Shown: positions 5,769-55,646 of the stretch, one piece after another
Layout of the letters: every line of letters begins with the position of its first letter
Numbering within the stretch: position 1 is the first letter of the stretch
From: a virus
Taxonomy: Duplodnaviria > Caudoviricetes
DNA: 64,000 bases
Direction: 5' to 3' (one strand)
Virus record (IMG/VR): IMGVR_UViG_3300035498_000956
The notes under the pieces: model-generated
Told to the model about the DNA's origin: nothing
Seen by the model: only the letters and a program-made list of their open reading frames with translations
The model's database searches: none
Position numbers and translations under genes: made by a program

Positions 5769-5828
5769 ATAATATCCTCCAAACTAAACATATAACTCTC
5801 ATTTTAAACTTAAAAATCTTAAATTTAA

Positions 5829-5853
5829 GCAATAGAGGGATTACCTCTATTGC
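5829..5853 (-). terminator. Hairpin after ssb, probable terminator
   Basis: GCAATAGAGG / CCTCTATTGC inverted repeat. Confidence 0.55.
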
Positions 5854-5864
5854 ATTTACTTCCA

Positions 5865-6767
5865 TTAGAATCCAAAATCATTCATATCATTCTTCTTAGG
5901 CTTTGGAGCAGAACTCTTATTCTTCATCGCTTCAATTCTACCCTTTCTTTCACTAAGAACAACCTTTATATCATCTGCATCGTAAGAAAATTCCTCTTCA
6001 AGACCACTCTTTGAACCAGAAGCAAGAATTAATTCCTTAGAAGTCTTAGTTCTTGTACGAGTTATATCCTCACCAAATCCCATCTCTTCCTTATAAGTTT
6101 CAACTGTTTGACTATAAACAATGTAACCAGCTATCTTAACTGTATCGCCCTTGTTCCAATAAGTCTTAACGTGATTCTTTGCATTCTCATCTGTAATATA
6201 TACATCAATGATATCTGCCTTACCATTATAACCTATTACAATTGCTTTAAGAATTAGTCTACCAGTTGGATTACCTTCCTTATCATATTCCTCATCGATA
6301 TCGTTACCAACAACACAAGTCATTTGGAACTTAGCTCTTTGTTCAAAAGGAGCTGTCTTACTCTTCTTGGAAATGAAATTAGTTGATACTTGCCAACCTG
6401 TACGTTCCATCTTAGTTGATGGATCTACCCAAAGATTTTCTTCAAGCTTACCACGATTAATTATTACTCTATCTGCTTGAGATGGTTCATCTGCCGCCGC
6501 GAGAGACGTATAATCTTCTGCCATTTGAGCGATAGAATTATAGATTTGATTCTCGCCGCCATCCTTCTTCAATCTCATTGAGAACATTCTTACAGGAATT
6601 TCTTCCTCGTAAACTTGACCCTTAATTTCTTGGTCAACACCAATTATTGCCTTTGCAGAAATATAATCTCTGCCATCATTAGTTGTTCTCTTGTCTACTT
6701 CTAATTCCTTTAAAATACCTTCGATTTCAACTACATTTTCACATTGCTTAGTTCTAATATTTAACAT
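5865..6767 (-). CDS. Single-stranded DNA-binding protein (tandem OB-fold type)
   Basis: NVVEIEGIL and KGDTVKIAG OB-like strands, acidic/aromatic tail DMNDFGF. Start reassigned to ATG 6767, 7 nt after GGAGGA. Confidence 0.65.
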   Translation of the reverse strand: MLNIRTKQCENVVEIEGILKELEVDKRTTNDGRDYISAKAIIGVDQEIKGQVYEEEIPVRMFSMRLKKDGGENQIYNSIAQMAEDYTSLAAADEPSQADRVIINRGKLEENLWVDPSTKMERTGWQVSTNFISKKSKTAPFEQRAKFQMTCVVGNDIDEEYDKEGNPTGRLILKAIVIGYNGKADIIDVYITDENAKNHVKTYWNKGDTVKIAGYIVYSQTVETYKEEMGFGEDITRTRTKTSKELILASGSKSGLEEEFSYDADDIKVVLSERKGRIEAMKNKSSAPKPKKNDMNDFGF

Positions 6768-6835
6768 ACACATATCCTCCAAAGATAACACTTTATTCAT
6801 TTATTTTTTTTTACATTATAGAGATAAACTCTAAG

Positions 6836-6907
6836 CTAGAGAGGTAGGATTCGAACCTACGTATCATAAAATCAAAATTTATTGTCTCACCACTTGACTA
6901 CTCTCTA
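6836..6907 (-). tRNA. tRNA-Gln(UUG)
   Basis: Acceptor TAGAGAG/CTCTCTA, anticodon arm ATAAA-TTTTGAT-TTTAT, T arm GTAGG-TTCGAAT-CCTAC; CCA not encoded. Confidence 0.88.
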
Positions 6908-6964
6908 ATTTCTCTTGATTTTCTATAATTATTATATCATAATCTATAGGAAAAATCAATTAAG

Positions 6965-7037
6965 TGAAACTGGGGAGATTTGAACTCCCGACTTCCAAAT
7001 TAAAAGTTTGGCATTCTTCCGACTGAATTACAATTTC
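6965..7037 (-). tRNA. tRNA-Lys(UUU)
   Basis: Acceptor GAAATTG/CAGTTTC, anticodon arm CCAAA-CTTTTAA-TTTGG, T loop TTCAAAT. Confidence 0.9.
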
Positions 7038-7043
7038 ATTTAA

Positions 7044-7114
7044 AGCAAGTAGAGGTAATCGAAACCTCATCTTGTGCTTGGGAAGCACACATTCTACCGT
7101 TGAACTATACCTGC
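7044..7114 (-). tRNA. tRNA-Gly(CCC)
   Basis: Acceptor GCAGGTA/TACTTGC, anticodon arm TGTGC-TTCCCAA-GCACA, T loop TTCGATT. Confidence 0.88.
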
Positions 7115-43958: not shown

Positions 43959-44156
43959 TTCCTATTGATTTTTAATAGAGGGTATGATATGATTAATTTG
44001 TTAAATGAAATCGGGACAGATGAAATTTGGTTATTGACCTTACAAGGATTGGAAATGTTGACAATTATTTTTTATCACTTGATTAATTAAAAACAGTTGA
44101 TTTTCTTTTTAAATTATGATATAATAATTATAGTGAAATTGAGAAAGGAGTTTAAA

Positions 44157-44249
44157 ATGAAATTTTTATTAGTGTGTGCCGTGTTATTTTTGCTTTATTA
44201 CACTGGTACAGATATATTGTTATCAATATTTTTTGACGATAGAAAGTAA
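44157..44249 (+). CDS. Small membrane peptide (30 aa), not in the ORF track
   Basis: MKFLLVCAVLFLLYYTGTDILLSIFFDDRK*, RBS AAGGAG, promoter at 44097. Confidence 0.5.
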   Translation: MKFLLVCAVLFLLYYTGTDILLSIFFDDRK

Positions 44250-44263
44250 AGGAGAATATTTAT

Positions 44264-44512
44264 ATGGTTAGAACTGTTATTAGTGTACAATTTAAAGACA
44301 AGAATAAAGTATTTAGGGGTAGAAACTATGATTACATACTTAATAGAGAGGAGGAAATTCCTGAAAAGGGAACTATTGTTCGCTTACTGGATGATGATTA
44401 TAATTATGTTGTCCACGGAACTAGATTAAAGATAAATGATATTCAAGAGAAGGATGTAAATGAGGAGGAGTATGTTTCTGTTCGTTACATCAGAGCTTCA
44501 TTAGATGATTAA
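44264..44512 (+). CDS. Hypothetical protein
   Basis: 82 aa, RBS AAGGAG. Confidence 0.6.
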   Translation: MVRTVISVQFKDKNKVFRGRNYDYILNREEEIPEKGTIVRLLDDDYNYVVHGTRLKINDIQEKDVNEEEYVSVRYIRASLDD

Positions 44513-44524
44513 AGGAGAGATAAT

Positions 44525-44812
44525 ATGGCTAAGCGTATTACTGATGAGATGATTGTTCAGATTAATGAAGAGTATAGTCGTGACCCAGTAAAAAGTCATG
44601 TAGCTAAAAAGCTGGGGATTTCCCCAGCGACAGTTACAAAATATCTAAAGGATAATTATCAAGAGATAAAGAATCAAGTTGTAGAAAAAACTAATTTTGA
44701 ACTACCTGACGCGGCGACAATAAAACTAGGTGATGATTGGGGAGCGTTATGTGCTTTATCAGAAGAAGAATGGGCGGAGTTGAAGGAATTGCAAAAGTCT
44801 ATTCTTGTATAG
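44525..44812 (+). CDS. HTH-domain protein
   Basis: KSHVAKKLGISPATVTKYL. Confidence 0.65.
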   Translation: MAKRITDEMIVQINEEYSRDPVKSHVAKKLGISPATVTKYLKDNYQEIKNQVVEKTNFELPDAATIKLGDDWGALCALSEEEWAELKELQKSILV

Positions 44813-44825
44813 AAAGGAGAATTAT

Positions 44826-45110
44826 ATGACTAGTTTTGTAGTACAAAAAGCGTGTGATATGGTTAAATATATGATAAGACCTGATACTGATGATTGGGTT
44901 ATCAAAACTGAGGGGTCATATGGTGTTTTTGCGGCGAGAGTTGTGGGATTGTCGTTTGCACAATATCTACAATATATTAGGGATAATTATAATGGGATAA
45001 TTGTAGGTAATCAAGGCTATAGCTCTATTCAATTTAAGAATAAAGCTGATGCCGAAAGATGTGCTAAATTTCTTAATGAACGCCTATTGATTGTAAAGGA
45101 GAATGTATAA
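44826..45110 (+). CDS. Hypothetical protein
   Basis: Start reassigned to ATG 44826 after AAGGAG. Confidence 0.6.
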   Translation: MTSFVVQKACDMVKYMIRPDTDDWVIKTEGSYGVFAARVVGLSFAQYLQYIRDNYNGIIVGNQGYSSIQFKNKADAERCAKFLNERLLIVKENV

Positions 45111-46099
45111 TGAAAAGATTAATTATATTAGTAGGTCTGCCCGCAAGTGGCAAAAGCACAATAGCAAAAAATTTAGTCATTCAACATGGCGGAGTAGTTG
45201 TAGCTACTGATAAGATTAGAGAAGAGCTATATGGTACTAGAAAAGAACTGGGTGGTAAAGAAATCTTTACTGAAGCAAAAAATCGTATTATTAAAGCTTT
45301 TAAAGATGGGGAGAAAAACGTTTATTTTGATGCAACAAATCTACGTAGTAAGAAACGAGCATCATTTATTAGGTCAATTCAAGAACAGATTGATGAGAAA
45401 ATTTCTGTTGTAGCTCTTTTGATTGCTGTATCAAAAGATACAGTGAGAATCCAAAATGAAAGGAGACCTCAAGAGCATCAAGTTCCAGCTTATGTGATAG
45501 AGAGGATGTTAAGAAATTTTCAAATGCCGATGTATCATGAAGGATTTAGTCACATTATAGTTTTTTATAATGATATTTTTAATTTTATGCATGAGTACAA
45601 TATACATAATCAACATTTCTTTGGGGCAATATTAGATTTAATGGATTTTGACCAAGAAAGTCATTATCACTCATTAACACTAGGCGAACACTTGTACGCA
45701 ACTTGTATAAATCTTAGAGAAATGATGCGTGGAGATGCATTTAGAGACGGGCAAGAGGATAGGTTTCAAACTGTTTCTGAGGCTGGTTTATTGCATGATA
45801 TAGGAAAGCAGTATACGAAGACGTTTTATAATACAAAGGGAGTATTAGATGATACAGCTCATTACTATGGTCATGAAAGTTTTGGGGCGTATGAATCTTT
45901 ATTCTATCCAACTAAAGCTAAGAGTGGTATGAAAGCGATTATTTATAGGGCACAGCTCATAAGCAATCATATGATGCCATATCATTTTAATACTAAATCT
46001 CAAACAGAGCTAAATAAAAAATTGTTAAGGAAATTTAAAGACCAAAATTTCGTTGATGATTTAATGTTGTTACATATGAGTGACGTTAATAGTCACTAA
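45110..46099 (+). CDS. Polynucleotide-kinase-like P-loop domain fused to an HD phosphohydrolase
   Basis: VGLPASGKST, TDKIR, FDATN, NERR (kinase); YHSLTLGEH, LLHDIGK, YYGHE, NHM (HD). Confidence 0.8.
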   Translation: MKRLIILVGLPASGKSTIAKNLVIQHGGVVVATDKIREELYGTRKELGGKEIFTEAKNRIIKAFKDGEKNVYFDATNLRSKKRASFIRSIQEQIDEKISVVALLIAVSKDTVRIQNERRPQEHQVPAYVIERMLRNFQMPMYHEGFSHIIVFYNDIFNFMHEYNIHNQHFFGAILDLMDFDQESHYHSLTLGEHLYATCINLREMMRGDAFRDGQEDRFQTVSEAGLLHDIGKQYTKTFYNTKGVLDDTAHYYGHESFGAYESLFYPTKAKSGMKAIIYRAQLISNHMMPYHFNTKSQTELNKKLLRKFKDQNFVDDLMLLHMSDVNSH

Positions 46100-46207
46100 T
46101 TAAATGGGTACTCTTATTTTTCTAGAGTACCCTAAAAGTGTTGATACTTAATCGTTAGACTAAAACGTAAGACAAATGTCTTATGTAAATAAATTGAGGT
46201 GAATATT

Positions 46208-46753
46208 ATGGCAACAAAAGAAATTATTGATGCTTCTGTACTAGCTAATAGAGAATGTAATTGTAGTACTTCTAGTTCTAGTAGCACTACTTCTACGAAG
46301 CCTGATTGTGTTCCATATCCTCCTCAGGGTTTCTATCCTCCTTATCCTCCTTATCCATATCCTGCATCATATCCAGCAGGCGATGGTCCAGAGGCTATAA
46401 ACCCTTGCAAAAATTCTATCGAAGTTCAAATTGCAAAAATGAGCAAGAAGGCTTCTGTAATCAGAAAGATGTTAAATAATCTACAAAAGAGACGTAAGCC
46501 AATCATCATTTCTATTGGTGGGGTGCAATATAATTTCGGTTGCTATTCTACTATATCTGAGAACGGTGAGGAAGTAAGCGTTGTAGATTCTACTTCTGCT
46601 GATGAAATTAATTATGGTGAGCAAGTAGAAGAAATGCTTGTTTACGAGTTAAAGGCAATTATAGCAAAGATTGAAGAATTATCTGCTGAATTGACTGAAA
46701 GTATTGAAATAGGGGATCTTCCTGAAGGTACTGAGTCAACAGTTACGGCTTAA
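46208..46753 (+). CDS. Hypothetical protein with a Pro/Tyr-rich tract
   Basis: PYPPQGFYPPYPPYPYP; flanked by hairpins at 46106-46132 and 46771-46800. Confidence 0.6.
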   Translation: MATKEIIDASVLANRECNCSTSSSSSTTSTKPDCVPYPPQGFYPPYPPYPYPASYPAGDGPEAINPCKNSIEVQIAKMSKKASVIRKMLNNLQKRRKPIIISIGGVQYNFGCYSTISENGEEVSVVDSTSADEINYGEQVEEMLVYELKAIIAKIEELSAELTESIEIGDLPEGTESTVTA

Positions 46754-46770
46754 TTAGTACAGAACGAAAT

Positions 46771-46800
46771 AAGGAGAGGTATATTTACCTCTCTTTTTCT
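46771..46800 (+). terminator. Intrinsic terminator
   Basis: GAGAGGTA/TACCTCTC stem followed by a T run. Confidence 0.7.
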
Positions 46801-46962
46801 TTTCCTATTGATTTTGTTTAAAGACTATTATATAATTAATATAGAAAATCAAAAGCAAACAGCTAGAAAAAACGTTTAGAACTTAAACGTTAAAACCTAG
46901 TTGAAAAAATCTTTAGATTACGATATAATATTAATAGAAAATCAAGAGAGGAGAAATCGAGT

Positions 46963-47400
46963 ATGAAAGTAACTGTTAAAAAAATTCCAAAGGGTAAACA
47001 ATCTTATAAGCATTGCCTTAAAGAAGAAATTCCTTTTTGGGAAAAGGATAACTTTGAGTGTAATGATAAAGAATATTTTAAAGCATTCAAAAATACCTAT
47101 GGTTTTAGCCCCGCTGAAGTGTGGAGCTTAGACTATACGATTGCACGTTTTGTATTACCTCGCCTTATTTACTTTAGAGATAATCTAAACGGTTGTCCAT
47201 CTTCTTTTATAGAAGACCCACTTAATAGTGAATCTTGCAATGCAGGACATGAGAAATGGGAAGAGGCTTTAAATAAAATGATTAAGGCTTTCTATCTGCT
47301 CGCCAACTATGACTGGTTTGACTATAGACAAAAGGATAGAGAGACTATTAAAGAGGGGCTTGAGTTATTTGCTAAGCACTTTACAAACCTTTGGGATTAA
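46963..47400 (+). CDS. Hypothetical phage protein
   Basis: 145 aa; WSLDYTIA...PRL...GCP...W...LNKMI..F...GLELF...LWD pattern common in phages. Confidence 0.65.
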   Translation: MKVTVKKIPKGKQSYKHCLKEEIPFWEKDNFECNDKEYFKAFKNTYGFSPAEVWSLDYTIARFVLPRLIYFRDNLNGCPSSFIEDPLNSESCNAGHEKWEEALNKMIKAFYLLANYDWFDYRQKDRETIKEGLELFAKHFTNLWD

Positions 47401-47414
47401 TAAGGAGGCACTAT

Positions 47415-47774
47415 ATGTATAAAATTGTTGATACCAATAGTGAAACTGCAGAGACTAAATTCTTTCATAATCTTTATGACGCTTGTTATTTCTTTGCTGA
47501 GCAAACTGTTGATTTTGATGCATATAATGATTTAATTGACGAATGTTATAACACATATGAAATTATGGGGATGGAGTATTCACCATCATATGTGTTTAAA
47601 ACAATTGACCCAATTGCATATGAGTGCAGTTATGATGATTATCTTGACGGCGTAGCAAGTGATTACTATTACGAACTAGGCATGATAGATGCAGAAGAAT
47701 TTCAAAAAGGATATGATTATGTAAGTTGTGGATATACAATTTACGAGATAGAAGGAGGAGCAATAAATGAATAA
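47415..47774 (+). CDS. Hypothetical acidic protein
   Basis: Start at ATG 47415 after AGGAGG. Confidence 0.6.
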   Translation: MYKIVDTNSETAETKFFHNLYDACYFFAEQTVDFDAYNDLIDECYNTYEIMGMEYSPSYVFKTIDPIAYECSYDDYLDGVASDYYYELGMIDAEEFQKGYDYVSCGYTIYEIEGGAINE

Positions 47775-48069
47775 TGTAGATACAATTAAAATTATCAATA
47801 GTATAATGAAGAAAACCTTTACATTTAAGGTAACCCAAGTAGATATTCTAGAAGATGACGGCGAAAAGAAGAAATTAGGGGTTTCTAATTGTGAGTATGA
47901 AAAGACTTCTAGAAAGAAATTTATCAAGGATTTAGTGGATACTTCTACTGATATACCAGTAGAGATTTGCTATGGTGAGCCAGATAGATATCAAATGGGG
48001 CATATCTATTTAAGACGAGATGGTAAATTTGCATATATGCTTGCCCCAAGAATTGATACTGTTGATTAA
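47767..48069 (+). CDS. Hypothetical protein
   Basis: 100 aa, RBS GGAGGAG. Confidence 0.6.
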   Translation: MNNVDTIKIINSIMKKTFTFKVTQVDILEDDGEKKKLGVSNCEYEKTSRKKFIKDLVDTSTDIPVEICYGEPDRYQMGHIYLRRDGKFAYMLAPRIDTVD

Positions 48070-48147
48070 AATTGTAGATTATAATATAATAATTACAGTG
48101 ATTGAGAGAAATATTTAAATGTTTTTAATTGAAAAGGAGAAAATTAT

Positions 48148-48492
48148 ATGAACGCAACAGAAAGAAAGAATTTTGCAAAGGATGTTTTAGTCAAAAACCT
48201 AGACCTAGAAGGTTTTACTCAAATTGGGGATTATGAATATGCGTTTCCTGTTTATATGCCCGATGATACCGTAATGTACGCTCGTTTTGAGGTTAAGGCT
48301 TGTAGTGAAAAAGATGTAAATAGAAAGGATGGCACTGTATTAAAAGCATTTGATATTGATAGTGCTGTAGCTAAATATCAAGAGAAGCTAAATGAAAAGG
48401 CGGAGAAGTTAGCTAAGAAGGCACAAAAATCTAAGAAAACAACTAAGAAGAAAGAAACTGAAGAAACTCCTACTGAGATGGTAGATTTTTAA
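48148..48492 (+). CDS. Hypothetical protein with a Lys-rich tail
   Basis: 114 aa, RBS AAGGAG, own promoter. Confidence 0.6.
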   Translation: MNATERKNFAKDVLVKNLDLEGFTQIGDYEYAFPVYMPDDTVMYARFEVKACSEKDVNRKDGTVLKAFDIDSAVAKYQEKLNEKAEKLAKKAQKSKKTTKKKETEETPTEMVDF

Positions 48493-48641
48493 AGGTATTG
48501 ACTTTTTTCAAATAGTGTGATATAATAGACGTATAGCTTGGAAGTTCCCTCACTTCTAAGAAATAATATAGTATTTATTTGTTAATTAGGACTAGCTTAA
48601 TAGCTAGTCTTAATTATTAAAATTTGTATGGAGGGCTGACA

Positions 48642-49400
48642 ATGATTAATAATGATATACAAAAATATACAGAGCGATGTATGTTGTTCTATTTTTTTGA
48701 TTCAATACCATTATTGCGAAATGCTGAAAAAAATCGTGTTGTGCAAGACTTTATTGACATAAGAGACATAGACAAAGAATTAGCAGATAAAATGGTATTA
48801 TGTGCTAGAGATATAAGCAATGGATATGGAGAGCGTAGAGTTGGCAGAATTTTACTACAAACTTTAGCAACTTTAGACCCAACAAAAGTTATAAGGAATT
48901 TATCCACATTTGTTGAAATAGGTAGATGGGATGATTTATTTATATTAGAGGGCACTCCATGTGAAGATGCAATGTGGAAATTTATTAAAAAACAAATTAA
49001 ACAAGATTTAGACGATATGAAAGATGGTAAAAATATTTCTTATTTATTCAAATGGATGCCATCTATTAATACTTCTAGTAAAGAAAAAGTTAGATTAGCT
49101 AAAAAGATTTGTACACTCTTTGGTTACACTGAAAGAGAATATAGGAAAATGTTATCAAAAGGAAGGGAATATTTAAGAATAGTTGAAAGAAAAATGAGTG
49201 CAAATCAATGGGACGATATAATTTTTGAAGTTGTACCTGTCGCGGCGAAACGACAGTATCATAAATCTTTCAAACGTCATTGTTCTTCTTTTGATTATGA
49301 ACAAAAAGAATGTCCTATTCAAACTGTTGATGTTAATCAAGTGGAACAATCTCAATATGAACTAATGATAGAAAAATTAAACAGTTACGAATATAAATAG
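48642..49400 (+). CDS. DUF2828 / TROVE-like helical protein (short, no C-terminal vWA seen)
   Basis: ARDIS.GYGERR, GRWDDL, KWMPS, YRKMLS, IVERKMSANQW..I.F..VP; start at ATG 48642 after GGAGG. Confidence 0.65.
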   Translation: MINNDIQKYTERCMLFYFFDSIPLLRNAEKNRVVQDFIDIRDIDKELADKMVLCARDISNGYGERRVGRILLQTLATLDPTKVIRNLSTFVEIGRWDDLFILEGTPCEDAMWKFIKKQIKQDLDDMKDGKNISYLFKWMPSINTSSKEKVRLAKKICTLFGYTEREYRKMLSKGREYLRIVERKMSANQWDDIIFEVVPVAAKRQYHKSFKRHCSSFDYEQKECPIQTVDVNQVEQSQYELMIEKLNSYEYK

Positions 49401-49459
49401 GGTCAATGTTTAAAAGGAAACAGCTATCTCTGAGGTTCGAATCCTCAGTTGACCCATCA
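49400..49459 (+). ncRNA. tRNA-like mini-RNA lacking the anticodon arm
   Basis: GGGTCAA/TTGACCC acceptor stem, TGAGG-TTCGAAT-CCTCA T arm, short GTTT-AAAAGG-AAAC D-like hairpin, only ~9 nt where the anticodon arm should be. Confidence 0.55.
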
Positions 49460-49489
49460 GTAAGAGAGGTTCGCCTCACTTAATTTTAA

Positions 49490-49569
49490 AAGACTTTTAC
49501 AGCTTTTTAATGTTTAAACGAAAGTCTTGCATTTAAGACCTACACAGCATTATTTTATTTAATAGGTCT
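49490..49569 (+). repeat. Two AGAC..ACAGC..GTCT hairpin units
   Basis: AAGACTTTT-ACAGC...GAAAGTCTT (49490-49528) and AGACCTA-C-ACAGC...TAGGTCT (49536-49569). Confidence 0.55.
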
Positions 49570-49576
49570 AGTCATA

Positions 49577-49607
49577 AAAGATAGGGGAGCTTTGCTTCCC
49601 TATTTTT
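49577..49607 (+). terminator. Intrinsic terminator
   Basis: ATAGGGGAGC/GCTTCCCTAT stem followed by TTTT. Confidence 0.75.
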
Positions 49608-49713
49608 GTTTGCAGATTTTTATTGCTTTGTCTGTTGATTCTGCCCGCAAATTATGATATAATAATTATAGTAAATGAGGAAAGCAGAGACCGCAGATGA
49701 AGGGAGAATGTGT

Positions 49714-50082
49714 ATGAGAGATACTATAGAGAAACCAAGGTTTATATGCACTGGTAAGGAAGAGAACTATAATGTCCATACTTATGCTGTTGATAAGAAC
49801 AGTTCTAAGAAATGGAATGAGTACACAATCTATAACATAGTGTTGTCAGATGGTCGTGTTACCACGTACTTTGATGATGTATCAGAAGCTGTTGAGTATG
49901 CTAAGAAAAGGCTAGTTGTAAAGGGTAGAGGTAAGGTAACAAAGGCTCTTGCACAGATACTAATACAAGATAGTAAAACTGGGGCGGAGCATCTAGTGGC
50001 TTTAGTTGAAAAGGAGATAGTCCGCCACTATAGAATGATAGGTAAACCTAAAGAGATAAAGTTAGAAGACGAAGAAATGTAG
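49714..50082 (+). CDS. Hypothetical protein
   Basis: Start reassigned to ATG 49714 after GGGAG; own promoter. Confidence 0.6.
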   Translation: MRDTIEKPRFICTGKEENYNVHTYAVDKNSSKKWNEYTIYNIVLSDGRVTTYFDDVSEAVEYAKKRLVVKGRGKVTKALAQILIQDSKTGAEHLVALVEKEIVRHYRMIGKPKEIKLEDEEM

Positions 50083-50131
50083 ATTATAATGGGCGGGCGG
50101 ATGGGATTAATACTTTAAAGGAGGGCTGTTT

Positions 50132-50662
50132 ATGAGAGAACTATTTACGGCAGATCTTCATATCGGGCATACAAATATTATCAAACATTGCAATCGCCCC
50201 TTTGAAGATACAGATGAAATGAATAAAATAATACTTGATAATTGGAATAAGACTGTACAAAGAGATGACCTTGTATATATACTTGGTGATGTTGCTCTAA
50301 GTAATAGATATGGAGTTGAAGAATTTCTTCAAAAAGCTAAAGGTAGGAAAATTCTTATTAAAGGAAATCATGATGGCTGGGTTAAAGGTCATTTTAGATT
50401 TTTCTTTGAGGATGTGCTTTCTTATCTTCAAATCAGGAGAAATGGAAAAATCATTACAATGTGTCATTATCCAATGATGAGTTGGGAGGGCATTAATAAA
50501 AATGGTATTATGCTATACGGACATATACATAATAATAGACCAATGATTTATCTACCTCAAATGTATAATGTAGGAATGGATGTTAATGGATTTAGACCTG
50601 TTACTCTTGATGAGGCAGTAATGAATAATAAGGAATATTATGGAGAGGAGTATGATATATAA
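50132..50662 (+). CDS. Calcineurin-like metallophosphoesterase
   Basis: TADLH, LGDV, GNHD, CHYP and YGHIH all intact. Confidence 0.88.
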   Translation: MRELFTADLHIGHTNIIKHCNRPFEDTDEMNKIILDNWNKTVQRDDLVYILGDVALSNRYGVEEFLQKAKGRKILIKGNHDGWVKGHFRFFFEDVLSYLQIRRNGKIITMCHYPMMSWEGINKNGIMLYGHIHNNRPMIYLPQMYNVGMDVNGFRPVTLDEAVMNNKEYYGEEYDI

Positions 50663-51783
50663 TGTTAGAGATTCAAAAGTTTTTAATACAATATGATGAT
50701 GCATTAGAGAGATTGACTAAACCTCCTTATAATTTAAAAATCAAAAGTAAGAATGGTCTTTATATATTTAGTTATCGTCAATTTGATAGTGATTTTACTT
50801 TAGAAATCGTTAAAGAGTCAAGAGGTCTAATACTTGAAGCTGATACGTGGAAAGTAGTTCGTTACTCTTTTAAAAAGTTTGGTAATTATGGGGAATCTTA
50901 CGCCGACAAAATTGATTGGGACAGTGCTGTTGTTACTGAAAAAATTGACGGCAGTATTATAGCTCTTTACTATTATAATGGAAAGTGGAATGTTGCAACA
51001 AATGGTATGATTGATGCAGAGGATGCTCCTTTAATGGAGACTTGCATTTATAAAAACTATAAAGAGTTGTTTGATTCCGCGGCGAAAAAGGTAGGATTGG
51101 ATTATAGTCATTTAAACACTTCTATGTGTTATACTTTTGAACTGGTCAGTGAATTTAATAAAATTGTATTAGACTATCCTCTTGATTTATATCATTTATC
51201 TACAAGAAATCTTACTACCCTTGAGGAAATAGAGATTGATATTGGAATACGTAAACCGCAGACTTTCGCATTGTCCAGTTTAGCTGATGTTATTGACGCG
51301 GCGAAAGCGTTAGGTAAAAATGGGGAAGGATTTGTCGTTAAGGATAAAAATTGCAATCGTATTAAAGTTAAATCCCCTGAATATGTTTTGGGACATAAGC
51401 TAAGGGATAGTGTAACTACTGCAGAGCTATTGGATATTGTAAAGAGGGGTGAACAAGAAGAGTTTTTAACATATTTTTCTGGTCTAGAAAGTCGTATTCA
51501 AAGAATAGAGCAATACTATAAAGAGGTATCTAAAGCTATCAGCCAGCAAATCACCAATGCAATCAATCTCTATAAAGAAAATTCTAATCGAAAGGATTTT
51601 GCTTTGGCTATTGATTCTCAAAAAATTCCTATAGCTTATAGACAATTTTATTTTACAGCTTATGGCGAGCTTACAGCTCATAGAGATTCGCCTTATAAGA
51701 CTATTATAAAAAAGTATTTTGATAATACTCCTTCTGCTAAGATTTTAAAAACATTTCCTATTGACGATTTTACGTTAAATTAG
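50662..51783 (+). CDS. RNA ligase (T4 Rnl1-like)
   Basis: ESRGLIL, FKKFGN, motif I TEKIDGS, TFELVS, GEGFVV, RIKVKSPEY; TAATG-coupled to the phosphoesterase. Confidence 0.85.
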   Translation: MLEIQKFLIQYDDALERLTKPPYNLKIKSKNGLYIFSYRQFDSDFTLEIVKESRGLILEADTWKVVRYSFKKFGNYGESYADKIDWDSAVVTEKIDGSIIALYYYNGKWNVATNGMIDAEDAPLMETCIYKNYKELFDSAAKKVGLDYSHLNTSMCYTFELVSEFNKIVLDYPLDLYHLSTRNLTTLEEIEIDIGIRKPQTFALSSLADVIDAAKALGKNGEGFVVKDKNCNRIKVKSPEYVLGHKLRDSVTTAELLDIVKRGEQEEFLTYFSGLESRIQRIEQYYKEVSKAISQQITNAINLYKENSNRKDFALAIDSQKIPIAYRQFYFTAYGELTAHRDSPYKTIIKKYFDNTPSAKILKTFPIDDFTLN

Positions 51784-51941
51784 CCCGCTAATATCGCACT
51801 AAAAACATCTGCATAAATGAATAAAGCGGAGATTTAGTGAATCATGCGTTGAAAAAAATTACTTTAGAATTAATGTTTCTATTGATTTTTCTCAAAGGAT
51901 ATGATATAATAATATTACATTAATAAAAGGAGGAGATACCG

Positions 51942-52040
51942 ATGATTACAATGAGTGTTGTTAAATTTGTATGTATTTGTATCGTCTGCTTGTGTGGAGG
52001 GTGGAATGCTCATTACATCTATGATAGATACATCAGCTAA
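51942..52040 (+). CDS. Small hydrophobic peptide (32 aa), not in the ORF track
   Basis: MITMSVVKFVCICIVCLCGGWNAHYIYDRYIS*, RBS AGGAGG, own promoter. Confidence 0.5.
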   Translation: MITMSVVKFVCICIVCLCGGWNAHYIYDRYIS

Positions 52041-52105
52041 ACCGAGTTGAAATTTTTCACAGAGTATGATATAATAATAACATCATTGAAAAAGGAGTGA
52101 TTTTT

Positions 52106-52258
52106 ATGTTGAATGTTTCAACAATGTTATTACTTATTTGTGTTTTCGTTGAGTGTTTTTGCCTCGGCGGACAAGTTACTCTTTTATTGCTGGGGTCTCA
52201 GAGAGATAAGCATGAGAAAAGAGAAACTGAGAATGATGACTCAGTTGAAAAAAAATAG
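52106..52258 (+). CDS. Small membrane protein (50 aa), not in the ORF track
   Basis: MLNVSTMLLLICVFVECFCLGGQVTLLLLG...; RBS AAGGAG, own promoter. Confidence 0.5.
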   Translation: MLNVSTMLLLICVFVECFCLGGQVTLLLLGSQRDKHEKRETENDDSVEKK

Positions 52259-52340
52259 AGGTTATGATATAATAATTACAGAGCTTTAAAAGAGCTGAAA
52301 AGAAAAAAAAGTTTAGAGTTAATTAAAAGGAGAACAGTTT

Positions 52341-52589
52341 ATGAGAAATAAAATTACACTTTTAGGTATGAGAGATATTCAAGAATTTGTTAACATCTGT
52401 GCTAACATCGATAGTGAGGTCGTACTTTATTGTCCAGTAAACGGATATAGAGTAAGTGCAAAGTCACTATTAGGGGCAATTGCTTCTATGGAATGGAATG
52501 AGGTCTGGGTTGAATGTGATAAGGATATTTATTCCTCAATTGAAAAGTTTATTAAAGTTAGTTCTGATTCTACAGTATATCATTCATAA
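52341..52589 (+). CDS. HPr-like protein (Ser46-type motif kept, His15 absent)
   Basis: 82 aa; EFVNIC...VSAKSLLGAIA matches the HPr V(N/D)AKS(I/L)(M/L)G motif. Confidence 0.7.
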   Translation: MRNKITLLGMRDIQEFVNICANIDSEVVLYCPVNGYRVSAKSLLGAIASMEWNEVWVECDKDIYSSIEKFIKVSSDSTVYHS

Positions 52590-52635
52590 AGAGAGATAAA
52601 TAGAAAAGGTTTAACAAAAAGAAAGGGGAACATCA

Positions 52636-52806
52636 ATGTTATTCTTATTTAAAATTTGTTTAGCTTTAATGGTAGGTTTTCTTGATTTCTTTTTAATGGA
52701 TTATATTAAGGGGAATAAGAAAATCTCATCAGGAGCAAAACTAAGAAACCTATATCTATGTGTAGGTATTTACGTAATCGTTTGTTTTACTTTATTGTTT
52801 TCATAA
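52636..52806 (+). CDS. Small two-TM membrane protein (56 aa), not in the ORF track
   Basis: MLFLFKICLALMVGFLDFFLM...LYLCVGIYVIVCFTLLFS*. Confidence 0.5.
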   Translation: MLFLFKICLALMVGFLDFFLMDYIKGNKKISSGAKLRNLYLCVGIYVIVCFTLLFS

Positions 52807-52823
52807 TCAAAAGGAGAATGTAT

Positions 52824-53279
52824 ATGGATAGATTTTTTATTAATGATAATAATGACGCTAACAAAAAGATTAGTGAACTATTCATTAGAATAGATTGTGC
52901 TTTAGCGAAATTAGAAAGTGAAGGAAAGATTGAAAGTAGGATTAATGAAGATGGAGAAGTGGTTTGGAGTTTAACTGATGCTGAACGCCAAAGATTAATA
53001 AATCAACAGGAAGATAATGGAGATTTAGAGAATGAACGTCACTTAATGAATGGGTATATGACATCAAAGATGGATGATATTCTCCAAGATATGGAGGAGT
53101 TTGAGATTTCTAGTTATGAAGATTTCTATAACTATATTGACTATCAATATGAAAACTTTAATAAAAAAGAAAAACAATTCTTGGAAGAGGAATGGGAGAT
53201 TTCGAGTACAAGAGATTTAATGATAGCGATGTTTGATTTTTATAATGATTTTTATTTAAATGGAATGACGGAGTGGTAA
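52824..53279 (+). CDS. Hypothetical acidic protein
   Basis: Start at ATG 52824 after AAGGAG. Confidence 0.6.
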   Translation: MDRFFINDNNDANKKISELFIRIDCALAKLESEGKIESRINEDGEVVWSLTDAERQRLINQQEDNGDLENERHLMNGYMTSKMDDILQDMEEFEISSYEDFYNYIDYQYENFNKKEKQFLEEEWEISSTRDLMIAMFDFYNDFYLNGMTEW

Positions 53280-53282
53280 ATT

Positions 53283-53648
53283 ATGGAAGTTAGTTATTCT
53301 ATATTACAATATCGCCCCAGTAGCAAAAAAGTACCCACGGCAATTATTGGAACTCTTTATCAAGTTAAAGATATAGGGGAATATATTTTGATGCCGTCCT
53401 GTACTGGAGTAGAATATCATCTTGGAATTATTGACATGATTGTAGATGAGATTGAAGAAATGAATAATCAAACAGTCGCAACTAGGTTAGAAGATTATAT
53501 ATCATTTTTTAAGAATGAGTATTTTTTTAGCCCAGTGATAGATTTTGAGATAGATGATTCACAGGATGTAGATTGGGAACGTTTGTTTAAAAATCGTACA
53601 GAATTTATTTGGAACTATATTGTTGAATCTATTTTTGCAGATAGATAA
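53283..53648 (+). CDS. Hypothetical protein
   Basis: 121 aa, in operon. Confidence 0.55.
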   Translation: MEVSYSILQYRPSSKKVPTAIIGTLYQVKDIGEYILMPSCTGVEYHLGIIDMIVDEIEEMNNQTVATRLEDYISFFKNEYFFSPVIDFEIDDSQDVDWERLFKNRTEFIWNYIVESIFADR

Positions 53649-53677
53649 ATGACAATAATATTTTAGGAGGACAATAC

Positions 53678-54091
53678 ATGAGCAATAGAAATTATGGATA
53701 CAAAATAGGTATAGGTATTACTCCTATTGGTCAGCTAGAAGGACATTCTATATTAGATTATAAGAATGATTTAATTAATTATTTCTATAATCATAAGTTT
53801 GACTTAGATATTGAACTAGATGTTGACGTTATAGCTCAAGCAATAGACAATGAAATAGACCCCTTGAAGTGTTATTCATTACAGCTAACAAGAGAGGAGT
53901 TTGAATCTAATTTAGCTGATATGGTAAATGAATTGCGTCTATTGAGTGAAATGTCAGATAATCTATATGTAACATTTGAAACTTATGGAGAATTATTCTC
54001 TGATTATCAACGCTATTATTATTACAAAGGCGAAGAATATATTGCTGATAAGATGCTTTCTTTTGGCAATTTTGACATATACGAAATATAG
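53678..54091 (+). CDS. Hypothetical protein
   Basis: 137 aa, RBS AGGAGG. Confidence 0.6.
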   Translation: MSNRNYGYKIGIGITPIGQLEGHSILDYKNDLINYFYNHKFDLDIELDVDVIAQAIDNEIDPLKCYSLQLTREEFESNLADMVNELRLLSEMSDNLYVTFETYGELFSDYQRYYYYKGEEYIADKMLSFGNFDIYEI

Positions 54092-54105
54092 GGAGGATTA
54101 TTTAT

Positions 54106-54453
54106 ATGAAGAAGGTATATTCATGGGGAGAATTTGAAGCATTTGCAAAGGAAACTGGTTTGAAATTTAATCCAAAGGAGAAAAAGGTAAATGAAGACAA
54201 GAGAGAAGCTCAAAGAAAGAAGTTTCTAGAGTGTAAGTCTTGCCATGGTCAACGTACTTATCTAGCAGGGACTAACTGCTTGATTTGTAATTGTGAAGTT
54301 GAGCGAGAAAAGGAGATTCCTGTTAAAGATAAGTTTGGTAAGGTTATTAATAAAAAGAAGGAAATTGTTAAAGAATCTTGTGGCATAGTAGACTTGATAG
54401 CCCCTGAATATCAGGACTATGCACGTTATCTATTTGAAGATAATGAGAGTTAA
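54106..54453 (+). CDS. Hypothetical Cys-containing protein
   Basis: CKSC...CLICNC; RBS GGAGG. Confidence 0.6.
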   Translation: MKKVYSWGEFEAFAKETGLKFNPKEKKVNEDKREAQRKKFLECKSCHGQRTYLAGTNCLICNCEVEREKEIPVKDKFGKVINKKKEIVKESCGIVDLIAPEYQDYARYLFEDNES

Positions 54454-54564
54454 AAAAAATGATAAGACTAATGACAGTACGGATATAGTGAAAGCTTTTA
54501 AAGAACTTTCATCAAGACTACGTTTATATTCAAAGTCTATATAATTAATACGGAGGAATTTAAA

Positions 54565-55044
54565 ATGGGAAGAATTTATGAATGTCCAATATGTAAGAAG
54601 AAATATAATGCTCTACAGCCTATGATTGATTGTGCTAAGAAATGTGAAGCACAAGAGCAAGAGGCAGAAGCAAAAAGACTTAAGCAAGAAGCTCAAGAAC
54701 AGCTCATTAAGCAAACCTATGCTGATGTGCAGAGAGTTTATAAAGAACTTTGCAATAAGGTTACTGCTTATAATAGATTAATTGCAGGTACTAACAAGAC
54801 CGCACTAACAGCCACACTTACATCTGAGGATTATAATAAGCAGTGTAAATGCGGGGCAAAGACTAGTACTATTAAGAATAATAAGGATGTAGAAAAGACA
54901 GAGACACCTAAGAAGGCAACTGCTAAGCAAGAGCAAGATAATCAAAAGGTAATTCGCACTGACATAAACAAGCTTGAAGAAGAGCTTTTAAAGGACGAAG
55001 ATATAAGCAAGCTAATAGAAACTTTAGCAGGTTTCTTCATATAG
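54565..55044 (+). CDS. Hypothetical zinc-finger/coiled-coil protein
   Basis: YECPICKKKY...CAKKC; RBS GGAGG. Confidence 0.6.
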   Translation: MGRIYECPICKKKYNALQPMIDCAKKCEAQEQEAEAKRLKQEAQEQLIKQTYADVQRVYKELCNKVTAYNRLIAGTNKTALTATLTSEDYNKQCKCGAKTSTIKNNKDVEKTETPKKATAKQEQDNQKVIRTDINKLEEELLKDEDISKLIETLAGFFI

Positions 55045-55049
55045 TTTAA

Positions 55050-55077
55050 AAGGGGCAAATTTTTGCCCCTTATTTTT
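55050..55077 (+). terminator. Intrinsic terminator
   Basis: AAGGGGCAAA/TTTGCCCCTT stem followed by a T-rich tail. Confidence 0.7.
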
Positions 55078-55098
55078 ATATATAGGAGTTGGTAAAAT

Positions 55099-55293
55099 AT
55101 GGTATTTAATGTGTACAAGGGCGGTGAGTTCTATGGAAAAGCAGATAGCTTTTACAGCTTGGCAAAGTTAGTTATTTCTCCTGATGACGACTTCGTGAGT
55201 AAGGCAATTGAATTAAAAGACAAATTCTATTTGGCTAATGTAAAAGACATCCGAGAAATCTTTTTTGAAGATTACAGAATTACTTTCTCTTGA
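55099..55293 (+). CDS. Hypothetical protein
   Basis: 64 aa, RBS AGGAG. Confidence 0.5.
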   Translation: MVFNVYKGGEFYGKADSFYSLAKLVISPDDDFVSKAIELKDKFYLANVKDIREIFFEDYRITFS

Positions 55294-55350
55294 ATTTTTC
55301 TTTAGACTATTATATAATTAATATAGAAAATCAAGAGAGGAGAATGTGGA

Positions 55351-55581
55351 ATGAAATTCTATGTTTGTGATGTTAAAGCGGGTCTGGTGATTGGTAATAT
55401 GAAATCAATAGATGATGTTATCACATACCTAACTAGCGGTCAAAATTACGTAGATTCAGTAGACCGCCTGCTGGACGAAACAATGATTAAAACTCATTAC
55501 CAAAGCAGTGCTGATAGACGCTACTTTGAAATCTATCGTATGCCTCTTAATGTAATAAAAGTTTTTTGGAAGACAGATTAA
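55351..55581 (+). CDS. Hypothetical protein
   Basis: 76 aa, RBS GAGGAG, own promoter. Confidence 0.55.
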   Translation: MKFYVCDVKAGLVIGNMKSIDDVITYLTSGQNYVDSVDRLLDETMIKTHYQSSADRRYFEIYRMPLNVIKVFWKTD

Positions 55582-55646
55582 GCTAATTGATTTTATTTAC
55601 AACCTGTGATATAATAATTATAGTGAATTTGAAAAGGAGAGCTGAA

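What the first reader, a model, noticed from the sequence alone, without database searches (positions are those of the whole stretch)
48498..49607. Candidate new RNP system: DUF2828/TROVE-like protein co-transcribed with an anticodon-less tRNA mimic and ACAGC hairpin RNAs
Seen: a single unit runs promoter (48498), structured leader (hairpins at ~48537-48560 and ~48583-48615), DUF2828-like gene, then ~170 nt of non-coding structure before a terminator (49577). That stretch holds (i) a ~57-nt tRNA-like RNA starting on the stop codon, with acceptor stem, perfect T arm and a GG-containing D-like loop but no anticodon arm; (ii) a GAGG-UUCG-CCUC hairpin; (iii) two stems with different but complementary arms that both display ACAGC at the 5' side of the loop. 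ACAGC also occurs in the tRNA-like unit. Established: Ro60/TROVE proteins bind Y RNAs, bacterial Y RNAs mimic tRNA, and these genes often neighbour RNA-repair enzymes. Inference: a phage Ro/Y-RNA-like particle. The tRNA mimic may be a nuclease decoy or an RNase P/Z processing signal that releases the ACAGC RNAs as ligands of the protein.
Basis: partly seen in the sequence, partly recalled or inferred. Interest (0 to 1): 0.85.

Follow-up and report, generated by a model that had tools for sequence, protein, structure and literature searches.

The report
Minimal phage Ro60-like protein with partner hairpins
A large uncultured gut phage encodes a shortened relative of the ring-shaped RNA-binding protein Ro60, and the same transcript carries a tRNA look-alike and two small hairpins of an RNA type that accompanies this protein family in many phages; this is probably a stripped-down, unpublished kind of Ro/Y-RNA particle linked to RNA repair.

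Summary
One unit runs from promoter 48498 through a 115-nt structured leader, a 252-aa DUF2828 gene, a 57-nt anticodon-less tRNA-like fold, a UUCG hairpin and two AGAC-N4-ACAGC-loop-GTCT hairpins to terminator 49577-49607.

The hairpins are minimal members of a widespread "clamp helix + ACAGCAA" RNA family. I found this family independently beside DUF2828 genes in about 80 phage loci. All 79 covariance-model hits lie on the gene's strand, 51 of them within 700 nt upstream of the start codon. A model built only from other phages picks hairpin 1 as the best hit in the whole 64-kb window.

The nearest full-length relative folds like Ro60 (Foldseek top 13 hits all Ro60/TROVE). The window protein keeps only the helical ring part and lacks the vWA domain. 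Both its hairpins deviate from the consensus (ACAGCUU and ACAGCAU).

This scan has already reported the DUF2828/ACAGCAA pairing on other DNA at least 55 times. I found it in no Rfam family, and my only targeted paper search (the term DUF2828) returned nothing relevant. New here are the vWA-less protein, the co-transcribed 3' position of the RNAs, and the mini-tRNA whose first G is the last base of the stop codon.

Binding, processing and function are inferred, not shown. A decaying remnant cannot be excluded.

The parts
48498..48526 (+). Sigma-70-type promoter, TTGACT-17-TATAAT with extended -10 TG
   Evidence: 11 of 12 matches. It is one of a family of near-identical early promoters in this region (family D4).
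48537..48560 (+). Leader hairpin 1 (9 bp)
   Evidence: fold; the leader as a whole has z = -4.4.
48583..48616 (+). Leader hairpin 2 (15 bp, loop UAAU). Its outer pairs (UAGGAC...GUCUUA) resemble a handle clamp, but it has no ACAGC.
   Evidence: fold. It sits where relatives carry a handle just before the RBS. The model R1 does not score it. The resemblance is my reading only.
48642..49400 (+). 252-aa short DUF2828 protein: the TROVE-like helical domain only, with no vWA/DUF7788 domain
   Evidence: The nearest relative, P0010 (495 aa, 46% identity), folds like Ro60.
49400..49456 (+). 57-nt tRNA-like unit: acceptor stem 49400-49406/49449-49455, D-like hairpin with GG loop, ACAGC at 49420-49424, T arm 49430-49448, discriminator A. 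No anticodon arm. Its first G is the third base of the TAG stop codon.
   Evidence: z = -3.0. Not called by ARAGORN or Rfam.
49461..49482 (+). UAAG-A-GAGG-UUCG-CCUC-A-CUUA hairpin (UUCG tetraloop)
   Evidence: z = -3.2.
49490..49528 (+). Handle hairpin 1: AAGACUUU U ACAGCUU, a 17-nt loop, then AAAGUCUU
   Evidence: R1, built from other phages only, scores it 19.7 bits. It is the best hit of the 64-kb window on both strands, E = 0.063, and E = 0.0013 locally.
49535..49570 (+). Handle hairpin 2: AGACCUA C ACAGCAU, loop, then UAGGUCU (7 bp)
   Evidence: R1 scores it 10.1 bits, the second-best local hit. The stem differs from hairpin 1 by compensatory changes.
49577..49607 (+). Intrinsic terminator (14-bp stem followed by a U tract)
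45110..46099 (+). Neighbour: AAA_33 kinase + HD phosphohydrolase (polynucleotide kinase-like)
   Evidence: phrog_505, polynucleotide kinase.
50132..50662 (+). Neighbour: calcineurin-like metallophosphoesterase
50662..51783 (+). Neighbour: T4 Rnl1-type RNA ligase
   Evidence: PF09511, 54.3 bits against a 28.3-bit cut-off.

Best explanation
This is a minimal version of a phage Ro60-like ribonucleoprotein module that sits within an RNA heal-and-seal gene cluster.

Shown:
- One promoter-to-terminator unit encodes a vWA-less, TROVE-like helical protein of the DUF2828 family.
- Its 3' untranslated part holds a tRNA-like fold and two hairpins built like the 'clamp helix + ACAGC(AA)' RNAs that accompany DUF2828 genes, on the same strand, in many unrelated phages.

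Inferred:
- The protein docks on the clamp plus the single-stranded ACAGC motif, as Ro60 docks on the conserved stem of a Y RNA.
- The tRNA-like unit (acceptor stem, T arm and GG elbow) is recognised by host RNase P and RNase Z. Cleavage would separate the mRNA from a roughly 150-nt RNA whose 5' end is protected by the UUCG hairpin and whose 3' end is protected by the terminator.
- The particle works with the neighbouring kinase/HD, phosphoesterase and Rnl1 ligase on damaged tRNA or other structured RNA during infection.
- Because the first G of the acceptor stem is the last base of the stop codon, RNase P-type cleavage would leave the mRNA without a stop codon. That could couple RNA release to shut-off of the protein.
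For: RNA family:
- ACAGCAA lies within 700 nt upstream of DUF2828 89 times on the gene strand and 2 times on the other strand, across 80 IMG/VR loci.
- In 30 seed handles from other phages, the 8-bp clamp is 97.8% paired and all 8 pairs show changes on both sides. No shuffle or slid control reaches this.
- Model R1 finds 79 hits at E <= 0.01 in 65 loci, all on the + strand. By my count, 51 lie within 700 nt upstream of the start codon.
- In the window, R1's best hit over 128 kb is hairpin 1. Hairpin 2 is second locally.
- L090 carries another short protein (246 aa, 41% identity) with the same tandem pair of minimal handles (AAGACUCUAACAGCAAGG...GAGUCUU and AAGACACUAACAGCUUU...AGUGUCUU) between tRNA genes.

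Protein:
- DUF2828 and phrog_850 membership.
- P0010 model has pLDDT 93.7, and its Foldseek top 13 hits are all Ro60/TROVE, E 9e-9 to 1e-5.
- The short model aligns 217-218 of 252 residues to Ro60 chains, which rank 2 and 3.

Context:
- Pnk-like kinase/HD, metallophosphatase and Rnl1 lie within 4 kb.
- There is no terminator between the stop codon and the hairpins.
Against: - No binding, processing or expression data exist.
- Both window handles lack the terminal AA that about 85% of clear handles have, and they score far below typical members.
- The protein lacks the vWA domain present in nearly all relatives, and its closest relative is full length. The unit could therefore be decaying.
- The Ro60 match of the short model is within the noise for helical repeats, and Foldseek finds nothing.
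- There is no sequence-level link to Pfam TROVE.
- The tRNA-like unit is seen only in seven >99% identical contigs, so no covariation is available. Only one loosely similar unit (L070:2974) was found elsewhere.
- In relatives the handles are mostly upstream of the gene, not downstream.
Confidence: 0.58

Rival explanations
1. Decaying remnant. A rearrangement replaced the 3' half of a full-length DUF2828 gene (the vWA domain). What remains is a truncated, possibly non-functional ORF plus degenerate handles and a collapsed tRNA gene left over from an ancestral tRNA/handle array.
For: - Nearly all of the 80 relatives are 480-540 aa.
- The sister of the window protein is full length (support 0.93).
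- Homology to P0010 runs right up to the stop codon, which is shared with the tRNA-like unit.
- Both handles carry non-consensus ACAGCUU and ACAGCAU and score low.
- In L007, a true tRNA-Gly lies 25 nt after the DUF2828 stop codon, the place the tRNA-like unit occupies here.
Against: - The ORF is intact, has its own strong promoter, a long structured leader and an RBS, and is conserved in seven metagenome contigs.
- vWA-less forms that end at the same domain boundary recur in at least three separate places on the tree (P0001; the group P0012/P0014/P0011/P0113; and P0003 and P0036, which fall outside the displayed subtree). They are intact ORFs at 35-45% identity.
- L090 pairs such a short form with the same tandem minimal handles.
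- The acceptor and T arms of the tRNA-like unit are perfect, which is not expected of a decaying pseudogene.
Confidence: 0.22
2. The hairpins are cis-acting mRNA elements (3'-end stability or processing signals, or operators for autoregulation) rather than free partner RNAs. The protein, or a host factor, binds them on the mRNA to control its own level.
For: - In many relatives one handle sits in the 5' leader a few nucleotides before the RBS of DUF2828 (for example L029, L030, L032, L050, L053, L068). That is the classic position for a translational operator.
- Here the hairpins are part of the same transcript.
Against: - In the window they lie after the stop codon, where they cannot block initiation.
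- In other loci many handles stand free between tRNA genes or inside tRNA bodies, far from the RBS. That fits trans-acting RNAs.
- The two roles are not exclusive.
Confidence: 0.12
3. The tRNA-like unit is a decoy or bait for host tRNA-targeting nucleases or tRNA-binding enzymes, or the 'cargo' that recruits repair enzymes. It is not merely a processing signal.
For: - It keeps the tRNA top half and elbow (acceptor stem, T arm, GG loop), which many tRNA-binding enzymes recognise.
- Bacterial YrlA Y RNAs carry a tRNA-like domain that tRNA enzymes act on (PMC4201824).
- In relatives, handles are grafted into complete tRNA bodies.
- Rnl1 and a Pnk-like enzyme are neighbours.
Against: - It has no anticodon arm, which is the target of the known anticodon nucleases.
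- It is not physically joined to a handle by a clamp.
- No conservation data exist.
Confidence: 0.2

Closest known systems
Ro60/Rsr with Y RNAs, especially tRNA-like YrlA of bacteria and mycobacteriophages (Chen et al. 2014, PMC4201824; Rfam RF02553), and Ro60 of Thermus phage phiLo (PMC12135203; PDB 9l5y)
   Same: - A helical-repeat protein of Ro60 fold (shown for the full-length relative P0010).
- Encoded beside small structured RNAs on the same strand.
- tRNA mimicry in the RNAs.
- RNA-repair genes as neighbours.
   Different: - No sequence match to Pfam TROVE.
- The window protein has no vWA domain.
- The RNA signature is a 7-8-bp clamp plus single-stranded ACAGC(AA), not the Y RNA stem.
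- No YrlA hit.
- The RNAs here are in the 3' UTR of the protein's own mRNA.
DUF2828 with 'helix + ACAGCAA handle' RNAs, as reported repeatedly by this scan on other phages, giant viruses and bacteria. I found it in no Rfam family, and my one targeted paper search (DUF2828) returned nothing relevant.
   Same: - Same protein family.
- Same clamp geometry (AAGAC-N3-4 / N3-4-GUCUU).
- Same ACAGC core, same strand, adjacent position.
- tRNA-derived parts nearby.
   Different: - The protein is truncated to the ring domain.
- Only two cargo-less handles, both with non-consensus last two bases.
- Handles lie downstream and are co-transcribed, rather than in an upstream tRNA/handle array.
- The tRNA-like part is separate from the handles and lacks an anticodon arm.
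Class I RNAs of dictyostelid amoebae (Kjellin et al. 2021, PMC7919456; Rfam RF01414)
   Same: - A short covarying stem joins the 5' and 3' ends.
- A conserved, unpaired 11-nt motif follows the 5' arm; its invariant positions 6, 9, 10 and 11 are C, C, A, A (PMC7919456). This fits ..ACAGCAA.
- The interior is variable.
   Different: - RF01414 does not hit the window (E <= 10) or five handle-rich loci (E <= 0.1).
- The paper reports the class as unique to Dictyostelia, with an RRM protein as binder.
- The actual motif letters are from my memory, not from the text I could read.
T4-type tRNA heal-and-seal repair (Pnk plus Rnl1) and jumbo-phage RNA repair sets with a ROT/TROVE protein (Iyer et al. 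2021, PMC7824862)
   Same: Kinase/HD, phosphoesterase and Rnl1-family ligase lie next to a TROVE-like protein. The review notes that some jumbo phages add a TROVE protein with a tRNA-like partner.
   Different: That review names no RNA motif. Here the RNA partner candidates are defined, and the protein is a short form.
tRNA-like processing signals (tRNA punctuation; the MALAT1 mascRNA 3'-end module; from my own knowledge)
   Same: A tRNA-shaped element embedded in a longer transcript that could direct RNase P and RNase Z cleavage.
   Different: No anticodon arm at all, only 57 nt, and cleavage is untested.

Membership tests
Ro60/TROVE ribonucleoprotein | Ring-shaped helical-repeat (TROVE) fold | tested here: inconclusive
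- Nearest full-length relative P0010: the top 13 Foldseek hits are all Ro60/TROVE, E 9e-9 to 1e-5, TM 0.33-0.59.
Ro60/TROVE ribonucleoprotein | C-terminal vWA (MIDAS) domain | tested here: not met
   The protein ends at residue 252, before the vWA domain. It has no DUF7788 or VWA hit. tblastn of the vWA-bearing P0002 finds nothing else in the window. P0010 has DUF7788 and VWA_2.
Ro60/TROVE ribonucleoprotein | Sequence membership in Pfam TROVE (PF05731) | tested here: not met
   No TROVE hit at E <= 10 for P0001, P0010, P0012, P0013 or P0014. A profile search against PDB sequences returns no Ro60.
Ro60/TROVE ribonucleoprotein | Adjacent Y RNA of a described type (YrlA, Yrn1) | tested here: not met
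   No Rfam Y RNA or YrlA match at E <= 10 in 47500-50500.
Ro60/TROVE ribonucleoprotein | Protein binds the neighbouring RNA | not testable with these tools
   Needs EMSA, RIP or a co-structure.
DUF2828 + ACAGCAA-handle RNA pairing (scan-internal, unpublished) | DUF2828 protein | tested here: met
   PF11443 at 42.7 bits against a 29-bit cut-off; phrog_850 at E = 1e-37; 2812 homologues at E <= 0.001.
DUF2828 + ACAGCAA-handle RNA pairing (scan-internal, unpublished) | 7-8-bp covarying clamp followed by unpaired (U/A)ACAGCAA, on the gene's strand, near the gene | tested here: inconclusive
   Clamp, ACAGC core, strand and proximity are all present. Hairpin 1 is the top R1 hit of the window (19.7 bits, E = 0.063) and hairpin 2 scores 10.1 bits. 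The last two bases are UU and AU instead of AA, and the scores are below the 27-54 bits of clear members. Non-AA variants do exist elsewhere.
tRNA | Cloverleaf with anticodon arm | tested here: not met
   ARAGORN finds no tRNA at this position; its three calls are at 6835-7114. There is no RF00005 match at E <= 10. Only 9 nt lie between the D-like hairpin and the T arm.
tRNA | Acceptor stem stacked on a T arm with a canonical T loop; D-loop GG | tested here: met
   7-bp acceptor stem, 6-bp T stem, UUCGAAU loop, AAAAGG loop.
Dictyostelid Class I RNA (RF01414) | Match to the family covariance model | tested here: not met
   No RF01414 hit in the window region at E <= 10, nor in five handle-rich loci at E <= 0.1.
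T4-type RNA heal-and-seal set | Polynucleotide kinase/phosphatase plus Rnl1-family ligase | tested here: met
   AAA_33 + HD (45110-46099), Metallophos (50132-50662), and RNA_lig_T4_1 at 54.3 bits against a 28.3-bit cut-off (50662-51783). Enzyme activity was not tested.

The most novel reading that the evidence does not exclude
A vWA-less Ro60-type ring and its own RNA partners are made from a single transcript. A 57-nt anticodon-less tRNA mimic directs host RNase P and RNase Z to release a two-handle small RNA. The same cut removes the last base of the stop codon, turning the mRNA into a non-stop message. Particle assembly would then switch off further protein synthesis. This would be a self-limiting, minimal Ro/Y-like particle dedicated to phage RNA repair.
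Probability: 0.12. Interest if true: 0.85.

Novelty: new variant of a known kind. Interest (0 to 1): 0.6.

Why it matters
Ro60 and its Y RNAs are conserved from bacteria to humans, and Ro60 is a major autoantigen. How the RNA partner directs the ring is still only partly understood.

The DUF2828/ACAGC-handle pairing looks like a second, undescribed solution to the same problem, and it is widespread in phages.

This locus offers the smallest form found here:
- a 252-aa protein without the vWA domain;
- two roughly 35-40-nt cargo-less hairpins;
- a 57-nt tRNA top-half mimic;
- all on a 1.1-kb transcription unit next to RNA-repair enzymes.

That makes it a convenient test case for three questions. 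Does the ring domain alone recognise the clamp plus ACAGC? How are partner RNAs cut out of an mRNA? Is the vWA domain dispensable?

If it is instead a decaying copy, it shows how such modules erode.

Tried and rejected
- Split gene or intron: the 135-aa ORF downstream (49675-50082) does not match the vWA half, and no vWA-coding sequence exists anywhere in the window. Reading through the TAG stop adds only 10 codons before a TGA (read from the sequence).
- Whole genome: none is held for this window, so a separate vWA gene elsewhere in the phage could not be checked.
- Covariation from close relatives: six metagenome copies are >99% identical and have no change in 49400-49610.
- Similar DNA in GenBank phages: none.
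- Exact tRNA-like 3' half: not found in IMG/VR or in 185,579 species genomes.
- Looser acceptor + T-loop pattern: returned only a few unrelated tRNAs, for example in Gracilibacteria.
- Alignment of the tRNA-like unit to the window's three tRNAs and to the L007 tRNA-Gly: only the universal T loop is shared. No parent tRNA was identified.
- Tandem-handle pattern: no hit in IMG/VR. In the metagenome collection, the hits that kept both clamps paired were mostly unrelated satellite-type repeats. Two real handle pairs were found, and one (L188) lies in front of a DUF2828 gene.
- Descriptor search for other short acceptor + T-arm units in about 85 loci: only L070:2974 is a possible analogue.
- Second-best R1 hit of the window (3282-3337, minus strand): has a poor clamp and lies inside an ORF, so it is likely chance.
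- Synteny of the unknown ORF after the unit with that of L088: no similarity.
Full report
**What is there**

The region is an early-type gene block of a large AT-rich uncultured phage, in which almost every gene has its own strong promoter. One such promoter (48498-48526, TTGACT-17-TATAAT with TG) is followed by an unusually long 115-nt leader with two strong hairpins (48537-48560 and 48583-48616; z = -4.4). Next come an RBS and a 252-aa ORF (48642-49400).

After the stop codon there are about 210 nt with no ORF. They fold far better than shuffles (z = -4.07, 0 of 200) into:
- a 57-nt tRNA-like unit (49400-49456);
- a UUCG-capped hairpin (49461-49482);
- two hairpins with different but complementary stems, each showing ACAGC on the 5' side of the loop (49490-49528 and 49536-49569);
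- a terminator (49577-49607).

ARAGORN and Rfam call nothing here. AGAC-N4-ACAGC occurs only twice in both strands of the 64-kb window, both times here.

**The protein**

It is a DUF2828 family member (42.7 bits against a 29-bit cut-off) and matches phrog_850 'RNA-binding protein', but only profile positions 44-225 of 476. Nearly all of 80 IMG/VR relatives, and most of the 150 best representatives, are 480-540 aa and add a DUF7788/vWA domain. The window protein stops in the helix that precedes that domain. No vWA-coding sequence is found elsewhere in the window.

- Its AlphaFold model (pLDDT 83.8) is all-helical. Foldseek finds nothing significant.
- I therefore folded the nearest full-length relative, P0010 (46% identity, sister on the tree with 0.93 support). 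Its pLDDT is 93.7, and its 13 best Foldseek matches are all Ro60/TROVE structures (E 9e-9 to 1e-5).
- There is no sequence-level match to Pfam TROVE or to Ro60 chains.

So the family is Ro60-like by fold, and the window encodes only its ring-type domain.

**The hairpins belong to a widespread RNA family**

While scanning 80 related loci for T-loop motifs, I saw ACAGCAA recurring just upstream of DUF2828. The counts are as follows.
- ACAGCAA lies within 700 nt upstream of the gene 89 times on the gene strand and 2 times on the other strand.
- Most copies have the form (A)AGAY-N3-4-(U/A)ACAGCAA-variable interior-N3-4-RUCUU(G).
- In an alignment of 30 such elements from other phages, the 8-bp clamp is 97.8% paired. 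All eight pairs show changes on both sides, and no shuffled or slid control comes near. The seeds were picked for having a stem, so the strand bias and the model search are the more independent tests.
- The covariance model R1 finds 79 hits at E <= 0.01 in 65 loci, every one on the DUF2828 strand. By my count, 51 lie within 700 nt upstream of the start codon, and several abut the RBS.
- In other loci the same module is grafted, in circularly permuted form (hairpin followed by ACAGCAA), into the anticodon arm of otherwise complete tRNA bodies of 100-140 nt.
- Rfam has no family that hits these elements.

**The window's hairpins in that family**

R1 contains no window sequence. Its best hit in the whole window, both strands and filters off, is hairpin 1 (19.7 bits, E = 0.063). 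In the local region, hairpin 2 is second (10.1 bits).

Both are weak members. Their loops carry no cargo, and the motif ends in UU and AU instead of AA. Such variants exist elsewhere but are a minority.

The closest parallel is L090. There, another short DUF2828 (246 aa, 41% identity) is preceded by the same kind of tandem pair of minimal handles, one with ACAGCAA and one with ACAGCUU, lying between tRNA genes. A third short-form locus, L088, has three degenerate handle-like hairpins (ACUGCAC, AUCAGCUAA) next to tRNA genes.

**Short forms**

vWA-less proteins ending at about the same point occur in at least three separate places on the tree. The window protein groups with full-length P0010. 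P0012, P0014, P0011 and P0113 group elsewhere. P0003 and P0036 fall outside the displayed subtree. Four of them (P0003, P0012, P0014, P0036) are complete genes inside contigs. This fits either a repeatedly viable ring-only form or a recurrent way of decaying. I cannot tell which.

**The tRNA-like unit**

It has a perfect 7-bp acceptor stem, a 6-bp T stem with a UUCGAAU loop, and a small hairpin with AAAAGG in its loop. Only 9 nt (including ACAGC) lie where the anticodon and variable arms should be.
- I estimate that such an acceptor + T-arm unit is expected about 0.05 times per window by chance. A descriptor search found it to be nearly unique among about 85 loci.
- No parent tRNA could be found.
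- All copies are >99% identical, so neither conservation nor a recent deletion can be shown.
- Its first G is the third base of the TAG stop codon.
- In the related L007, a true tRNA-Gly lies 25 nt after the DUF2828 stop codon. A tRNA at this position may therefore be ancestral.

**How it most likely works**

Shown: co-transcription architecture, family membership of the protein, Ro60-like fold of the family, the RNA family and its tight same-strand linkage to DUF2828, and RNA-repair neighbours (kinase/HD, metallophosphatase, Rnl1).

Inferred:
- The ring domain binds the clamp plus ACAGC.
- The tRNA-like top half is cut by RNase P and RNase Z, releasing a small RNA protected by the UUCG hairpin and the terminator.
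- The particle assists or regulates repair of damaged tRNA or other structured RNA.
- RNase P cleavage would leave a non-stop mRNA.

I put about 0.58 on the partner-RNA reading and about 0.22 on decay. The cis-regulatory and decoy variants are partly compatible with the main reading.

**Relation to what is known**

The closest known system is Ro60/Rsr with tRNA-like YrlA Y RNAs (PMC4201824), together with phage Ro60 (PMC12135203). A jumbo-phage review notes TROVE proteins in RNA-repair sets (PMC7824862). Membership in that family fails on sequence, on the vWA domain and on the RNA type. The claim here is 'works like', not 'is'.

The published description (short covarying terminal stem; 11-nt unpaired motif with invariant C6, C9, A10, A11; PMC7919456) fits ..ACAGCAA. 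However, RF01414 does not hit these RNAs.

This scan has already reported the DUF2828/ACAGCAA pairing at least 55 times on other DNA. I reached it independently before looking. A search for the term DUF2828 returned nothing relevant.

**Verdict**

For this particular copy it is uncertain, because the copy is minimal and possibly degenerate. It is a new variant of a known kind, of moderate-to-high interest, mainly as the smallest experimental handle on the system.

Noticed in passing
L007:4679-7227: In the closest vWA-bearing relative (59% identity), the DUF2828 ORF starts at the equivalent of residue 63 and is directly preceded by a GIY-YIG/NUMOD3 homing-endonuclease gene (5099-5908). The gene looks split by a mobile endonuclease or intron. 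The upstream exon was not located.
   Followed up: no
L049:3276-3645; L069:3389-3638; L055:3310-3423; L082:3369-3635: tRNA bodies of 100-140 nt. The Rfam tRNA model matches them end to end, with a 38-59-nt insert in the anticodon arm. The insert is a hairpin followed by ACAGCAA, which is a circular permutation of the free handle.
   Followed up: partly
L088:9780-9935: Three handle-like hairpins with a good AAGAC/GUCUU-type clamp but variant motifs (ACUGCAC; AUCAGCUAA twice). They lie next to tRNA-Gly and tRNA-Ser, 4 kb downstream of another short DUF2828 gene.
   Followed up: partly
L090:1338-1414: A tRNA with a CUA anticodon (ARAGORN 'tRNA-Pyl', an amber-suppressor type), not recognised by the Rfam tRNA model. 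It sits in the same small tRNA/handle array.
   Followed up: no
window 48583-48616: A 15-bp leader hairpin whose outer pairs (UAGGAC...GUCUUA) look like a handle clamp without the ACAGC motif. It sits where relatives carry a handle before the RBS. It may be a vestigial handle or unrelated.
   Followed up: partly
window 44097-55635: About ten near-identical promoter units (TTGAYT-N17-TGATATAAT plus the first leader bases), one per small gene. Those listed with their genes have much shorter leaders than the 115-nt DUF2828 leader.
   Followed up: partly
L069:8335-8391: HDV-like ribozyme match (RF02682, 40.5 bits, just under the 44-bit gathering score) directly after a tRNA gene in a phage contig.
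   Followed up: no
L008:1369-1454: A c-di-GMP-I riboswitch aptamer (69.3 bits) in a phage contig, 2.5 kb upstream of its DUF2828 gene.
   Followed up: no
window 48817: The window differs from all six metagenome copies by G->A, which gives Ser59 here and Asn59 in them. This is the only difference inside the gene. None lies in 49400-49610.
   Followed up: yes
L070:2974-3039: A 66-nt unit with a perfect 7-bp acceptor stem and a canonical T arm but an AU-rich interior with no clear D or anticodon arms, upstream of a DUF2828 gene. It is the only possible analogue of the window's mini-tRNA.
   Followed up: no
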